Position numbers and translations under genes: made by a program. Below are positions 52,857 through 59,516 of a DNA stretch of 64,000 nt, piece after piece. The notes below the pieces were generated by a model. It saw only the letters and a list, made by a program, of their open reading frames with translations. It was not told the DNA's origin and made no database searches. Source of the DNA: Enoplolaimus lenunculus. Its lineage: Eukaryota. The DNA lies in NCBI GenBank assembly GCA_030248215.1, contig JASANG010000611.1, positions 248,001 through 312,000 on the forward strand. Reading direction: 5' to 3'. Numbering within the stretch: the first letter of the stretch is position 1; the number at the start of each line of letters is the position of its first letter.

Positions 52857-53232
52857 TATAGGTGCGTGAATTGTGATCCAACTAGCGCAACATAATACTA
52901 GAGTGAGCATTATCTTAAACATTGTATTATTGCATTTATTGTGTACAACAAGTATTTTATTGGTACAAAAATACACCTGAAAAATGACAAAAACACACAA
53001 AATGAAACAACAACAAAGCTAGCCCATCTGTAACAAAACCAGAAAAGAAGCCAAACGAAAACACTAGCCCTTGACACCAGACTTTCTCCAACTGAGATGA
53101 TTGCTAAGTTTTACTCTTGACAACTGTGTCGCCCCCGCAATATGCAAATTATCATGAAAGCTAACCCGGCAGTTGTTAAGCGCAGCATGCAAATTGCTCG
53201 CAAAACTACAGCGAGAGAACACGGCCGCCACA
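52857..53232 (-). repeat. 3' LTR (376 bp)
   Basis: Direct repeat of 59140-59516; by eye two substitutions and one 1-bp indel; minus strand begins TGTGGCGG and ends CCTATA. Confidence 0.95.
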
Positions 53233-53753
53233 TAACCCCCACCATCAGATGTGGAGCTACCTGAAAGTTGTCTTTTAGAAGAAAGCGGGGAATAAAACGT
53301 AACACGTTTTTCCAACGTACTTTTTGTATAGTTAGAAAATTGGCTTGTTTGTTCCCAAAGCGAGTCATCGCTATCAATTACAGCTTCCGCCAATCTTAAA
53401 GCGTTGCAAAGACCCTGATGGGGAGTATGATGGCAAAAAGTGAATCTAACAATTTTAGAAAAGGGAACAAATGCGTAGCGTTCAGTATGAAAAAACTGGC
53501 AAGGACGAGTATTATTCGGTTGCTTGCAATGCTCGAGTGGGGAACCAGCAATACTAATTATACGAGCTGGCCACAATGGGTAATTTGCAACTTGAGCGCT
53601 TACAACCGTACCCGGCGCTAGGGTGGCTGGGTTAAAAACTTTGTAGTTAACAACACGCGTTTTTAGGCAGGATTTAATTTTGCAGTGATTCGATAAATTT
53701 CCACTATCACCTTCCCTTCGTCCGTTAGGTCCTGCCGAAATTCGTCCCCGGAG
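53064..53753 (-). pseudogene. PWWP-domain reading frame downstream of and overlapping the integrase (domain ~53621-53373)
   Basis: LAPGTVVSAQVANYPLWPARIISI...KQPNNTRPCQFFHTERYAFVPFSKIVRF...QGLCNALRLAEA; frame open from 53753 with no ATG before the domain, overlapping the integrase tail by ~90 nt in the -1 frame. Confidence 0.85.
53233..53245 (-). other. Polypurine tract
   Basis: TGGTGGGGGTTA immediately before the TG of the 3' LTR. Confidence 0.75.
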
Positions 53754-56740
53754 CTAACGAAAGCCGGTTTAACTCTATCGATCGAAACCCTGTTTCGCAG
53801 CCCTTGTTGATCAATTGACACTGTTTTTTCGTCCCAATCGACAATACGATGCGGGCCATTGTAACGGGGTTCGAGACTGTTTCTAGGTGCTGCATCACGC
53901 AACCACACATACTCACATGATCGCAAGTCCTTGGGAACGTAGCAGGGAGCGCGATGGATTCTTACTGGCGCTGAAAAATTCCTTACACCCGCAAAAAATG
54001 TTTCTAAAAAATAATTCGAAAACCTAGGACATTCAGGTGTATTAGTATTGAAAAAATAGCCCGGCAAATTCAGTGATTTCCCATACAATGTTTGTGCTGG
54101 ACAGACTCCGTCGTCGTTAATGGCATTACGAATTCCTAAAAGCAAAAGTGGTAAATGTAATGTCCAATTGGCGCAATCACATTTCGATCGCAACGCAGCT
54201 TTTAGCGTACGATGGAAACGTTCAACGGCCCCATTGCAAGCTGGATGGTAAGCAGTAGTTCGTTTGCGTTTGATTCCCAATTTTCTCATCAACTCGTCCC
54301 AGACAGCAGACTCAAATTGAGGTCCGCGGTCTGAAATAAGAATTCTGGGTACGCCAAAACGGCTGACCCAATGATTAAGAAAAGCACTCACTATGGTAGT
54401 AGTTGACATATCTGCAATCGGAATAGCTTCTGGCCATTTCGTGAAACGATCTACAACTGTTAACAAATACGCAAAACCCCCAGAACGAGGTAACGGTCCT
54501 ACCAAATCTATATGAATTGTGTCTAACCTTGTTGACGTTGGTATATCACCGATTGGGGCGCGGGTATGGCCCACCTTACTGACCTGACATCGGTGACAAA
54601 ACCTACACCAAAGCTTAACTTCTTTGTTCATTCCCGGCCAAATCTTTGCGCAATTGTGCGTAAAGTACAGTTTGGACCGGTGTGAGCAGCATCATGTATA
54701 GCATGAAAATTTTCCTACGCATACAAAAAGGTATGTACGGTCTGATAACGGGAGTGGATGCATCACAAACAACAGTCTTGCCATTCACCTGAAACTTTTT
54801 TAAAGGCAAAGTAGTAGTGTTGAAAAATTGTTGCGAATCATTGTCCTCTAATTGCGCAATAGCCATTTCCTCGTTGCAATCTGAGGTAACAGCTGAACAG
54901 GACGAACGCGACAATGCGTCAGCAACGATGTTGTCGCAACCCGAAACATGCTCAATTTTACAATTATGCTCAGAGGTATAGGACAACCAACGAGATTGCT
55001 GAGGTGTAGGATTCTTCATACTCAATGCATTCAACAGAGGCTTATGATGCGTCCGAATAGTAGATTCGGTTCCCAACAACCACTTGAAATGTTTAAGCGA
55101 GGCATAAATAGCCAATAACTCCCTGTCAAAAGTAGATTTATTTGATTCAGAGTCCAACAGCTTACGTGAATAAAAAGATAGAGGTTGGCGCTCCCCATTA
55201 ACCAGCTGATTGAGAACAGCCCCTATTGCAATATTGGAAGCATCGGCGGTTAACTCAATTGCTGCATCCTCCAGTGGAAAATACAAAGTTCGACAGCTCT
55301 GCAATGCGTTTTTAAGTTCGATGAAAGCTTTTTTCGCGGAAACGTTCCACACCAGAGGTTGTTTGGAATTTTTCTTGACATTGCGCGTCATATCCGTGAG
55401 AGGGGCGGCTATTTCTGAAAATTGAGGAATGAATCTATGGTAAAATGCGCACATACCAATGAACCGTCTCAAACCTTTAACGGTAACTGGCATTTCAAAA
55501 CTGTTAATGGCATCGATCTTCGCCGTCAACGGACGAAACCCCCCGCATGTAATTTCAAACCCGATAAATTTTGTTTTAGACACTAAAAACTCACATTTCT
55601 CCTTTTTTAAACGCAAACCATTAGCAGATAAATGTTCAAATAACTGATGCAGATGTTTGATATGTTGCGGTATATCTTCACTAGCAATAAGTACATCATC
55701 TAAATACGCAATTGCAAAGGTGCAACCACGCAAAACGGTGTCCATTAAACGCTGAAATGTTTGAGCTGCATTCCGCAAGCCAAACGGCATGCGCCTGTAA
55801 ATGAAAAGTCCGAAGGGGGTAGTATAATTGCGGTTTTCAACTGGTCCTCCACCGCCACCGGTATCTGATGATAGGCGGACACTAGATCCACTTTGGAAAA
55901 TACCTTGCAATTCCCGAGCCGATTTGTCAAATCCCCTATGTTAGGCATCGGGTACCGATCAGGGATAGTCACTTTGTTCAACTTGCGATAATCGCCGCAA
56001 GGGCGCCATGGCGTCGCGTTATCTGTTTTGGGAGCCATGTGCAAAGCGGATGACCACGGCGATTCCCCTCGAAAAACCACGCCCTGTTTTTCGAGATTTT
56101 CAAAGGACTTTTTGGCAATCTCAAGTTTTGGACCAAAAAGCCTGCGGGGTTTACTGAAAACAGGCTGTCCATTTGTCACAATTCTGTGAACGACAGAATG
56201 TTGGATAACATCATTAGACGATGGTTTATCAAAAATATTTGAATACTCTTTCAAAATGCTACGGAGTTCAACACTCCCTGATGGTGCAATCGAGGAAACG
56301 TTGGTCGGTCTCACATTACGGCTAATAACTGAAAACTGGGCAAAATTGGCAACTTCTTTACCATAATTGAACCTATGACCTCGTACTAAACGCAAATTCC
56401 GACAGTCTACCACTAAATTATGATTGCTCAAAAAATCAAATCCTAAAATTGGCTGCGAAACATCGGCTATAACAAAATCCCATGAAAACTTCTGACCGAG
56501 CTGCGGAATGCGGAAATTTAACATTTTGGTCCCAAAACTAGGAACTGGAAAACCATTTGCTGCATAAAAGGTATCCGCCTGCGCCTCTGAACTGGTTTTG
56601 AACCCTCCAACGAACGATTTCGGCAAAAAACTTTTAACGCTGCCCGTGTCTGCTAAAAAAATACCGATCTCGGGAACTGCGACATTTATTGTTCTGACTC
56701 CGGTCCCTGTCGCCGCGGGGCCGGAGACTGTGCTTTTCCC
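53663..56740 (-). pseudogene. pol: Pol: aspartic protease, RT, RNase H, integrase; three internal frame breaks (~55825, ~54706, ~54641)
   Basis: FLADTGS, ILGFDFL, WRPCGDYRKLN, MPFGLRNA, YLDD, TADAS, DRELLA, HDAAH...CHRC, HIDLVGP, SDRGPQF, NGAVERFHRTLK, PRYNGPHRI. Confidence 0.95.
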
Positions 56741-57723
56741 GAATCTCTTACAACCCATTCACATGGTTTGACACATCTATGCGCTCGTGGGCCGAACCTC
56801 GCATGGTAAAAACAAAGCTGTCGACCAGCGCCATACCGCATTCCAGATCGTGAACTACGCGCAGAATTAGATCTCGACCGACCTGCAAAATGCCGTCCAT
56901 CTCTTGGACGCCTTTTATTCAACCCGTCCACGCGTTTACTGAGCTGTGCTATACAATTTGACATTTCCTTCATCTGAAGTCACAAGGTGTCATCAGCCTT
57001 TTCCTGACATGTTTCCGTAACCGATGATACACATGCATCAACACTAGCGCCGGGAGTCAACTGCTCTAAAATGCGATCAGCAAGACTAGCTAATTTCTCA
57101 ATTTTAACATCATCAACAACGACCAACGAAATTCTAACTTTCTCAGGAAGCGCAGCCATAAATCTCAGTTTCACCAAATCTGCATGACCAGGCGCTTTTC
57201 CCTGCAGCTGCCGCAGCAACACTGAAGGCTTTCGATCCCCTAAAACTTGCTGTTCCAACAGCTTCCGTAACTGCATCTCTTCACTTTGCCCAAAAAATTT
57301 AGTTACACAGTCTTTTATAGCTGCAGAGCTGTCCGTGGCATTTGTACCACTGTCTATCATGACATTGGTGGGTAGCGCATTAAGCAGTGCGTTCCTCTTT
57401 GAGGTTTCCGACAATCCCTCTATTAATGGCTCAATCTACGTGAACCAAACCCTTACATCACGTTCATAAAACTCGGGCAATTTTGGTAAACGACTGTTAC
57501 CGTCAGCGGGACCACTAGCTGCGGACAATGGTTGCTGCCCCGCCTCTGCCCACAATAACGCAACACTAACTACACCTGGTGGTATTTGGGCCAAAGCGTC
57601 CGCAATCAGACGCTTGGTTCCCGGCATTACAAAATCCGAATCATGCTCATTTATCAACTGGAGCGCTCTAGCCAACACCTCTTTATTGTATTTATCCAGG
57701 TTGGCCGCGTCTAACTTTGGGGG
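56686..57723 (-). pseudogene. gag: Gag, starting at the Pro after the second 2A motif; two in-frame stops (TAG 57438-57436, TGA 56982-56980)
   Basis: One frame: KLPEFYERDVRVWFT*IE, LGDRKPSVLLRQLQ, FMAALPEKVR, LASLADRI, knuckle CFYHARFGPRAHRCVKPC. Confidence 0.9.
56698..56740 (-). promoter_or_regulatory. Putative programmed -1 ribosomal frameshift signal (gag-pol)
   Basis: G_GGA_AAA in the gag frame (56740-56734); 7 nt later the hairpin CTCCGG-C-CCC-(9 nt)-GGG-A-CCGGAG (56726-56698); pol lies in the -1 frame. Confidence 0.75.
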
Positions 57724-59119: not shown

Positions 59120-59137
59120 ATCACGTCGGGGTCACCA
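59120..59137 (-). other. Primer binding site complementary to the tRNA-Trp 3' end
   Basis: TGGTGACCCCGACGTGAT, 2 nt after the 5' LTR; complement of ...AUCACGUCGGGGUCACCA of eukaryotic tRNA-Trp. Confidence 0.9.
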
Positions 59138-59139
59138 AG

Positions 59140-59516
59140 TATAGGTGCGTGAATTGTGATCCAACTAGCGCAACATAACACTAGAGTGAGCATTATCTTA
59201 AACATTGTATTATTGCATTTATTGTGTACAACAAGTATTTTATTGGTACAAAAAATACACCTGAAAAATGACAAAAACACACAAAATGAAACAACAACAA
59301 AGCTAGCCCATCTGTAACAAAACCAGAAAAGAAGCCAAACCAAAACACTAGCCCTTGACACCAGACTTTCTCCAACTGAGATGATTGCTAAGTTTTACTC
59401 TTGACAACTGTGTCGCCCCCGCAATATGCAAATTATCATGAAAGCTAACCCGGCAGTTGTTAAGCGCAGCATGCAAATTGCTCGCAAAACTACAGCGAGA
59501 GAACACGGCCGCCACA
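59140..59516 (-). repeat. 5' LTR (377 bp)
   Basis: Direct repeat of 52857-53232, followed by the PBS. Confidence 0.95.

What the first reader, a model, noticed from the sequence alone, without database searches (positions are those of the whole stretch)
52857..59516. Whole architecture suggests an undescribed Gypsy lineage with two host-derived modules and three recoding signals
Seen order on the minus strand: LTR, PBS(Trp), leader-2A, IMPACT-TM-2A, Gag, -1 frameshift, PR-RT-RH-IN, PWWP, PPT, LTR. The Gag (LGDRKPS, CxYHxxFGxxAxxCxxPC) and Trp PBS belong to a common invertebrate Gypsy type that normally has only gag-pol. Inference: this lineage gained a translation-control module at the 5' end and a chromatin reader at the 3' end.
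Basis: inference. Interest (0 to 1): 0.88.

Follow-up and report, generated by a model that had tools for sequence, protein, structure and literature searches.

The report
Gypsy element with built-in chromatin tether
This jumping gene belongs to a branch of CsRn1-type LTR retrotransposons whose integrase carries its own PWWP domain, which likely steers insertion on chromatin much as HIV's borrowed human protein LEDGF does, and it also carries a captured IMPACT fragment that two ribosome-skipping peptides are predicted to release from the capsid protein.

Summary
The architecture is real and not a chimera. It is a decayed copy of a CsRn1-clade Gypsy element (Trp PBS, 4-bp TSD, TGT..ATA LTRs, CHCC Gag, -1 gag/pol overlap) with two additions. 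(1) A PWWP domain closest to HRP-2/LEDGF follows integrase. Seven of 120 listed Pol relatives carry PWWP fused in frame; with the window integrase and one PWWP-less protein they form one branch (SH-aLRT 100, 49-56% integrase identity). (2) About 1.4 kb before Gag encodes leader-2A-IMPACT ancient domain-TM-2A. Short-read contigs of three runs (one study) span this cassette and Gag in one piece, and sister families about 80% alike in those runs keep IMPACT-to-Gag or 2A-to-protease spacing. None of 80 control Gypsy loci has either addition. Nine literature searches found no PWWP-integrase or IMPACT-carrying retrotransposon; Repbase, Dfam and GyDB could not be searched.

The parts
59517..59520 (-). 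target-site duplication CAAC (5' side)
59140..59516 (-). 5' LTR, 377 nt, TGT..ATA, two AATAAA
59120..59137 (-). primer-binding site of the CsRn1 tRNA-Trp type
   Evidence: matches the PBS given in PMC2582038
58624..59046 (-). leader peptide (up to about 140 aa from the first in-frame ATG of this copy; true start uncertain because other copies differ by a small indel near the first ATGs); one hydrophobic stretch; no Pfam match
58621..58683 (-). 2A/StopGo peptide 1, L-rich type, core DVESNPG/P
   Evidence: activity not assayed
58240..58557 (-). IMPACT/Yih1 C-terminal 'ancient' domain (UPF0029) without RWD
   Evidence: Pfam E 6e-25; Yih1 6bqi E 2.6e-14; about 51% to mollusc IMPACT
57853..57948 (-). 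predicted single transmembrane helix, after a linker of about 100 aa
   Evidence: hydropathy scan
57721..57780 (-). 2A/StopGo peptide 2, core GIEPNPG/P, directly before Gag
   Evidence: a sister family keeps it at the same distance from protease; activity not assayed
56686..57723 (-). Gag (LGDRKPS; CX2HX9CX3C at 56761-56814); broken in this copy by in-frame stops at 57436-57438 and 56980-56982
   Evidence: hits 29 of 80 control loci by tblastn
56696..56740 (-). predicted -1 frameshift site: heptamer G GGA AAA (56734-56740) and a weak downstream hairpin
53663..56758 (-). pol: protease (DTG), RT (YLDD), RNase H, integrase (H2C2, D,D35E); in three frames in this copy (56758-55745, 55940-54615, 54691-53663)
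53334..53612 (-). PWWP domain, HRP-2/LEDGF-like; in another frame than integrase in this copy, fused in frame to integrase in seven relatives
53236..53246 (-). short G-rich polypurine tract, three bases before the 3' LTR
52857..53232 (-). 3' LTR, 376 nt
52853..52856 (-). target-site duplication CAAC (3' side)

Best explanation
This is a decayed copy of a CsRn1-clade Gypsy retrotransposon from a deep sub-lineage whose integrase ends in a captured PWWP domain that likely tethers integration to nucleosomes, and whose first reading frame is predicted to be split by two StopGo peptides into a leader, a membrane-anchored IMPACT ancient domain and Gag. Shown: the parts and their order, the PWWP-integrase fusion across a well-supported branch, and the cassette in sister families of the same runs. 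Inferred: one genomic RNA gives leader / IMPACT-linker-TM (300 aa) / Pro-Gag by skipping; a minority of ribosomes slip -1 at G GGA AAA to give Gag-Pol-PWWP; the second 2A lets cargo ride upstream of gag at about 1:1 with capsid without blocking the Gag N-terminus or needing splicing or a second promoter; PWWP does in cis what chromodomains do for chromoviruses and what LEDGF does in trans for HIV, most likely binding nucleosomal DNA plus methylated H3K36 and so favouring gene bodies. For the IMPACT piece I put about 0.4 on an RNA- or ribosome-binding helper role at a membrane, 0.25 on interference with the host IMPACT/GCN1/GCN2 axis, the rest on other or no function; this step is the weakest.
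For: All CsRn1 marks of PMC2582038 are met. Integrase search: 7 of 120 listed Pol proteins (of 563 hits) carry PF00855, and they are 7 of the top 9; the window PWWP hits the same 7 of 120 (25-42%) and no other; Pfam re-scan confirms RT-RH-IN-PWWP in one chain for 3 of 3 tested and none in P0218. Quick IQ-TREE of 121 integrases: window + 7 PWWP + P0218 form one branch, SH-aLRT 100, stem 0.48; 2 label changes against a shuffled mean of 7.9; the six of them that include RT, with P0218, also rank first for the RT and RNase H pieces. PWWP: best PDB sequence hits HRP-2 (E 1.6e-5) and LEDGF; AlphaFold model pLDDT 81 matches HRP-2/PSIP1/HRP-3 PWWP by Foldseek, probability 1.00. By eye, the cage Trp is kept in 8 of 8, the Tyr position is aromatic in 6 of 8, the Phe in 7 of 8. 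Not chimeric: one contig in each of 3 of 3 runs covers 56680-59134 with 17, 23 and 35 substitutions; one contig covers PWWP and the integrase end. Those three contigs differ from the window at both gag stops. Sister families: X1 record 4 matches the IMPACT core (47 of 58 nt) and gag (103 of 129 nt) 1074 nt apart against 1072; X1 record 2 and X3 record 15 match 2A-2 and the gag/pol junction, 1004 against 997 nt. Both 2A cores fit the expanded motif and upstream classes of PMC12846837. Gly-Lys lies exactly 30 residues before the protease Asp in the window and in 4 of 4 relatives whose record reaches that far; 37 of 51 control gag ends have a slippery heptamer, 19 of them GGGAAAC. Controls: 0 of 80 Gypsy loci have 2A, IMPACT or PWWP; PBS-to-CHCC is 698-945 nt in the 11 loci where measurable against 2323 here.
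Against: No activity was measured. Only 43 of 580 retroelement-linked 2A peptides were highly active in one preprint. The acidic residue at LEDGF Glu49 is kept in 1 of 8 PWWP copies (by eye), so the ligand may not be H3K36me3; PDB hits are also biased by the many HRP-2 entries. The hairpin is weak. The window copy is broken five times, and one run's contig has a frameshifting indel inside IMPACT; 13 of 33 listed substitutions between near-identical copies fall on third codon positions (hand count from the 40 of 99 rows shown), which shows no selection at that depth. The three runs are one study and at most two samples, possibly the window's own. Sister-family evidence rests on short matched stretches at a lowered likeness threshold. 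No protein outside these runs showed 2A with IMPACT: 0 of 214 IMPACT proteins contain NPGP. The tree is a quick one and holds no named CsRn1 reference.
Confidence: 0.72

Rival explanations
1. The IMPACT cassette is a counter-defence against the integrated stress response: the freed domain dampens or decoys the GCN1-GCN2 pathway that ribosome stalls at StopGo and frameshift sites would trigger.
For: The domain comes from eukaryotic IMPACT/Yih1, a known GCN2 inhibitor; it would be made 1:1 with Gag from an RNA with three predicted stall sites.
Against: The RWD domain is absent; Yih1 with changes in RWD helix 3 no longer inhibits Gcn2, and the ancient domain's function 'remains elusive' (PMC4503747 passages). 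A TM anchor is not part of cellular IMPACT.
Confidence: 0.25
2. The 5' cassette is a recent passenger of one host genome with no benefit to the element; only the PWWP fusion is an old adaptation.
For: The cassette was seen only in three runs of one study; no IMPACT-2A-Gag protein among 64 hits or 150 listed representatives; near-identical copies decay without a third-position excess.
Against: Families about 20% apart in their best-kept stretches keep the IMPACT core and its spacing to gag within 2 nt; the domain is on a long branch (1.18) yet keeps the conserved THN, DDGE and RWYGG motifs; two intact 2A cores flank it.
Confidence: 0.15
3. The PWWP domain is not a methyl-lysine reader but a DNA- or nucleosome-binding aid to the integrase, with no targeting effect.
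For: The Glu49 position is mostly basic or polar (7 of 8), and one branch member has lost PWWP (P0218); LEDGF PWWP binds the peptide alone only at millimolar affinity.
Against: Cage aromatics are kept across 25-42% identical copies.
Confidence: 0.25
4. The locus is a chimeric assembly or a nest of separate insertions.
For: No single contig spans the whole element; PWWP is out of frame with integrase in this copy.
Against: Single contigs bridge leader-to-protease in 3 of 3 runs and integrase-to-PWWP in one; LTR pair 99.2% with a TSD; fused IN-PWWP in seven independent proteins.
Confidence: 0.02

Closest known systems
CsRn1 clade of Ty3/Gypsy (CsRn1, PwRn1, AgCR1-14; PMC2582038)
   Same: Trp PBS, 4-bp TSD, TGT..ATA LTR ends, CX2HX9CX3C Gag, -1 gag/pol overlap, PR-RT-RH-IN order, LTR of about 380 nt
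   Different: About 1.4 kb extra coding before Gag with two 2A cores and an IMPACT domain; PWWP after integrase; 6.66 kb against 4.2-6.2 kb in the rows of that paper's table that I saw
Chromoviruses (integrase C-terminal chromodomain, e.g. MAGGY) and PHD-bearing retrotransposons (bioRxiv 10.1101/2021.11.30.470311, PMC9289625)
   Same: A Royal-family or other histone reader fused to the integrase C-terminus
   Different: Reader is PWWP of the HRP-2/LEDGF kind, linked to active-gene H3K36 methylation rather than heterochromatin; host clade is CsRn1, not chromovirus
LEDGF/p75 (PSIP1) and HRP-2 tethering of lentiviral integrase (PMC3616739)
   Same: A PWWP domain of this subfamily coupled to a retroviral-type integrase
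   Different: Encoded in cis by the element instead of recruited in trans through an integrase-binding domain; the Glu49 position is not kept; binding untested
2A-like sequences of APE-type non-LTR retrotransposons (PMC3708506) and of retroelement contigs (bioRxiv 10.64898/2026.09.24.754024)
   Same: L-rich GDVExNPGP near the N-terminus of a retroelement ORF; 2A as a linker to bolt on a domain
   Different: Here in an LTR element, two in one frame, bracketing a host domain and freeing Gag; the preprint lists some LTR-like contigs with 2A but its supplement could not be read
IMPACT/Yih1 and bacterial YigZ (UPF0029)
   Same: C-terminal ancient domain with the conserved loop motifs, about 50% identical to animal IMPACT
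   Different: No RWD domain; followed by a linker and a TM helix; below NCBIfam cut-offs for YigZ

Membership tests
CsRn1 clade (Ty3/Gypsy) | PBS complementary to tRNA-Trp (TGGTGA(G/C)CCCG) | tested here: met
CsRn1 clade (Ty3/Gypsy) | 4-bp target-site duplication | tested here: met
   CAAC both sides
CsRn1 clade (Ty3/Gypsy) | LTR ends TGT..ATA or TGT..AAA | tested here: met
CsRn1 clade (Ty3/Gypsy) | Gag CX2HX9CX3C (CHCC) | tested here: met
   CFYHARFGPRAHRCVKPC
CsRn1 clade (Ty3/Gypsy) | PR-RT-RH-IN order; gag/pol fused, separate or -1 overlapped | tested here: met
CsRn1 clade (Ty3/Gypsy) | RT/IN phylogeny with named CsRn1, PwRn1, Kabuki references | not testable with these tools
   No named references were returned; tree holds unnamed or automatically named proteins only
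Chromovirus | chromodomain at the integrase C-terminus | tested here: not met
   Pfam, PDB sequence and fold searches give PWWP, no chromodomain
HDGF/LEDGF-type PWWP reader | PWWP fold: five-strand barrel plus C-terminal helices | tested here: met
HDGF/LEDGF-type PWWP reader | methyl-lysine pocket residues (Met15, Tyr18, Trp21, Phe44, Thr47, Glu49 in LEDGF numbering) | tested here: inconclusive
   aromatics kept (8/8, 6/8, 7/8), Glu49 position acidic in 1 of 8; by eye
HDGF/LEDGF-type PWWP reader | binding to H3K36me2/3 nucleosomes | not testable with these tools
   needs a binding assay
StopGo/2A | core (D/G/C/N)(V/I)ExNPGP with an L-rich upstream hexapeptide, in frame | tested here: met
StopGo/2A | peptide-bond skipping activity | not testable with these tools
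   needs a reporter assay
IMPACT/Yih1 GCN2 inhibitor | C-terminal ancient domain UPF0029 | tested here: met
IMPACT/Yih1 GCN2 inhibitor | N-terminal RWD domain that binds GCN1 | tested here: not met
   no PF05773 in ORF1; requirement
-1 programmed frameshift | X XXY YYZ heptamer in frame plus 3' stimulator | tested here: inconclusive
   heptamer present and its Gly-Lys trace kept in 4 of 4 relatives; hairpin z -1.75

The most novel reading that the evidence does not exclude
An animal Gypsy lineage evolved its own LEDGF: an integrase-fused PWWP that reads H3K36-methylated nucleosomes and aims insertions into active gene bodies, the opposite of chromoviruses. It also uses paired StopGo peptides as a cargo slot in front of Gag, and the cargo, the IMPACT ancient domain, was captured independently by a second class of retroelements (LINE-ORF1-like proteins), pointing to an unknown RNA- or ribosome-level function of this universal domain that retroelements exploit.
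Probability: 0.3. Interest if true: 0.9.

Novelty: new variant of a known kind. Interest (0 to 1): 0.73.

Why it matters
Paired 2A peptides before gag would be a simple route by which LTR elements gain genes at their 5' end. The IMPACT ancient domain is found in all domains of life and has no known function; its capture without RWD here, and separately in LINE-ORF1-like proteins, gives a new handle on it.

Tried and rejected
No whole genome is held, so copy number, insertion-site bias and the host's own IMPACT and PWWP genes could not be examined. No RNA holder listed. PWWP search among longer proteins: 0 of 270 candidates passed; the fusions were found through the integrase instead. IMG/VR: no relative for the IMPACT or the Pol query (13 pattern matches each, none confirmed). 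Metagenome scans gave no DNA of the PWWP branch: 0 matches to a degenerate integrase pattern, and the best 80 of 544 confirmed loci were other Gypsy elements, used as controls. ESM Atlas gave no answer. Earlier-findings look-ups returned nothing. Idea that the IMPACT piece came from the LINE-ORF1-like IMPACT pool (shared DDGEFGAG): rejected; those 6 rows form their own branch (99) and the window domain lies among cellular IMPACTs in a tree of 80 of the 214 proteins, donor unresolved. Leader, linker-TM and Gag N-terminus have no Pfam match at a useful E-value. Flanks (47300-52856, 59517-64000) show no ORF of 58 aa or more that looks like a gene by eye (not scanned against Pfam), so the single insertion site says nothing on targeting. 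The journal version of the chromatin-evolution paper was not held. Depth figures were not used as copy numbers.

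
Full report
1. Observation. The element lies on the minus strand from 59516 to 52857. Its LTRs are 377 and 376 nt, differ by two substitutions and one indel, begin TGT and end ATA, and are flanked by CAAC on both sides; a PBS starts two bases after the 5' LTR and a short G run precedes the 3' LTR. Pfam finds, in order, UPF0029 (E 6e-25), RVT_1, RT_RNaseH, rve and PWWP (E 1e-7). The first frame holds two StopGo cores, LLLLMAG-DVESNPGP and LLIIA-GIEPNPGP; they are the only two in the six frames of the window against 0.00018 expected. They bracket a 300-aa stretch: IMPACT domain, linker of about 100 aa, one predicted TM helix, then the second 2A, whose last Pro starts Gag. 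Pol is -1 to gag, with G GGA AAA in the gag frame and a weak hairpin behind it (z -1.75). This copy is broken: two in-frame stops in gag, pol in three frames, PWWP in another frame than integrase.

2. Not an assembly artefact. Three public DNA runs hold the stretch (one study, at most two samples, possibly the window's own). In each of the three, one short-read contig covers 56680-59134, leader to gag end, with 17, 23 and 35 substitutions; all three differ from the window at both gag stops, and one carries a frameshifting indel of its own inside IMPACT. One contig bridges the integrase end and PWWP, and other copies differ from the window by small indels in pol. No contig spans the whole element and no copy is shown to be intact.

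3. Backbone. Passages of PMC2582038 define the CsRn1 clade by a tRNA-Trp PBS, 4-bp TSD, LTR ends TGT..ATA or AAA, Gag CX2HX9CX3C and an ancestral -1 overlap. All are met. A phylogeny against named references was not possible. So the backbone is known.

4. PWWP is a lineage trait. A search with the integrase among longer proteins gave 563 hits; of the 120 listed, 7 carry PWWP in the same chain as RNase H and integrase, and they are 7 of the top 9. The window PWWP matches the same 7 at 25-42% and none of the other 113. A quick IQ-TREE of 121 integrases puts the window, these 7 and PWWP-less P0218 on one branch (SH-aLRT 100, stem 0.48; the careful search did not finish); integrase identity to these eight is 49-56%, and the branch members that include RT also rank first for the RT and RNase H pieces. 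They come from JGI, NCBI, Logan and ENA and carry no organism names. The domain's best solved relatives are HRP-2 and LEDGF/PSIP1 by sequence and by fold of an AlphaFold model (pLDDT 81). LEDGF PWWP binds H3K36me3 nucleosomes through a hydrophobic pocket and a basic DNA-binding surface and directs HIV integration to active genes (passages of PMC3616739). By eye the pocket Trp is kept in 8 of 8, the Tyr position is aromatic in 6 of 8, the Phe in 7 of 8, but the Glu49 position is acidic in only 1 of 8. Inference: a chromatin tether in cis; its exact ligand is open.

5. The 2A-IMPACT cassette is shared by sister families, so far only in these runs. At 80% likeness, X1 record 4 (5086 nt) matches the IMPACT core and gag 1074 nt apart against 1072 in the window; X1 record 2 and X3 record 15 match the second 2A and the gag/pol junction, 1004 against 997; X2, a second sample, holds the same two kinds of stretch on shorter contigs. 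A further family (X1 record 5, X2 record 9, X3 record 17) has 1752, 2316 and 2021 nt upstream of its gag match, against about 1756 to the PBS here (hand arithmetic on table 8; 10 pieces were not shown). By contrast 0 of 80 control Gypsy loci (50 with CHCC) have a 2A core, IMPACT or PWWP, and their PBS-to-CHCC distance is 698-945 nt in 11 measurable loci against 2323. Outside these runs nothing similar was seen: the ORF1 search gave 64 hits, all IMPACT-family proteins covering 22-41% of the query, and 0 of 214 IMPACT proteins contain NPGP. DNA of the other PWWP-branch members could not be fetched.

6. What the IMPACT piece is. It is the C-terminal ancient domain, about 51% identical to mollusc IMPACT, on a long branch among cellular IMPACTs with no resolved donor (80 of 214 rows), closer to Yih1 than YigZ. 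It has no RWD. Passages of PMC4503747 state that RWD helix-3 changes abolish Gcn2 inhibition and that the ancient domain's function and partners remain elusive. RWD-less IMPACT domains also occur behind what I recall as LINE ORF1p folds in 5 of the 214 proteins (one marginal), on a separate branch; the ORF1 label was not confirmed by Pfam or PDB.

7. Recoding. Both cores fit the expanded motif of PMC12846837, the first its L-rich D/S classes, the second its (A/G/S)G class with Pro at p15 (passages). Gly-Lys, the pol-frame trace of GGG AAA, lies exactly 30 residues before the protease Asp in the window and in 4 of 4 relatives long enough to show it; 37 of 51 control gag ends have a slippery heptamer. 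Against: only 43 of 580 retroelement-linked 2A peptides were highly active, and 56% mid-range, in one preprint (section read whole).

8. Mechanism. Inferred: LTR-driven RNA, one ORF1, StopGo twice giving leader, IMPACT-TM and Pro-Gag; -1 slip giving Gag-Pol-PWWP; PWWP holds the intasome on nucleosomes. Confidence 0.72 for this outline, about 0.6 that PWWP biases insertion sites, about 0.4 for an RNA- or ribosome-level helper role of the IMPACT piece, 0.25 for stress-response interference.

9. Novelty. Nine full-text searches (listings and abstract starts seen) showed no PWWP-integrase retrotransposon and no IMPACT-carrying element. Passages read: the chromatin-evolution preprint reports mostly Chromo and PHD fusions to transposons; PMC3708506 reports 2A in non-LTR elements; PMC12338488 names retrotransposons only in references; PMC6431247 and PMC9289625 have no 'PWWP' in the main text; the 2026 2A preprint includes unspecified LTR-like contigs. 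Supplements of the two preprints, which I could not see, may list PWWP-transposon fusions or LTR elements with 2A; Repbase, Dfam and GyDB were not searchable. Verdict: new variant of a known kind; interest 0.73.

Noticed in passing
proteins P0048, P0055, P0056, P0163 (and more weakly P0052, P0184): IMPACT ancient domain without RWD fused behind a coiled-coil and an RP(I)IAK-type region that I recall as LINE ORF1p; they form their own branch (99). Pfam and PDB did not confirm the ORF1 label. If right, a second, independent capture of IMPACT by retroelements.
   Followed up: partly
proteins P0065-P0069, P0072: Proteins with two or three tandem IMPACT ancient domains and no RWD match.
   Followed up: no
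window 35553-38468, minus strand: 971-aa open frame with RT and RNase H of a non-LTR retrotransposon (Pfam RVT_1 E 4e-41, RNase_H E 4e-17); a second RNase H fragment at 44175-44690.
   Followed up: no
window 40177-41090, plus strand: Two overlapping frames that look like a decayed piggyBac-type transposase with a C-terminal Cys-rich finger (resemblance recalled; only a weak zf-AN1 match).
   Followed up: no
window 30533-30964 and 45965-47244, plus strand: Exons of host genes: an FAD-dependent oxidoreductase and an inositol monophosphatase family protein. By recall they resemble nematode FOXRED1 and IMPAD1; host taxon not tested.
   Followed up: no
window 52557-52826 and 59580-59750: Both flanks of the element are very high-depth repeats in the three runs, and many contigs join 52826 to 59580: the element may have landed inside or between copies of an abundant small repeat.
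   Followed up: no
window 55948-56791: A contig in all three runs skips 602 and 220 nt of the protease-RT region on short sides (20 nt): possibly an internally deleted derivative or only a sister family.
   Followed up: no
window 60151-60464 and 60542-61125: 18-bp minisatellite, and a MITE-like element with 93-96% complementary arms.
   Followed up: no
C-termini of P0215-P0223 and window about 53290-53320: All nine branch members, the PWWP-less P0218 included, carry a basic K/R-x-V-(T/R/M)-F-like motif near the C-terminus (one has Ile for Phe); by recall this resembles a PP1-docking RVxF motif or a nuclear localisation signal.
   Followed up: no
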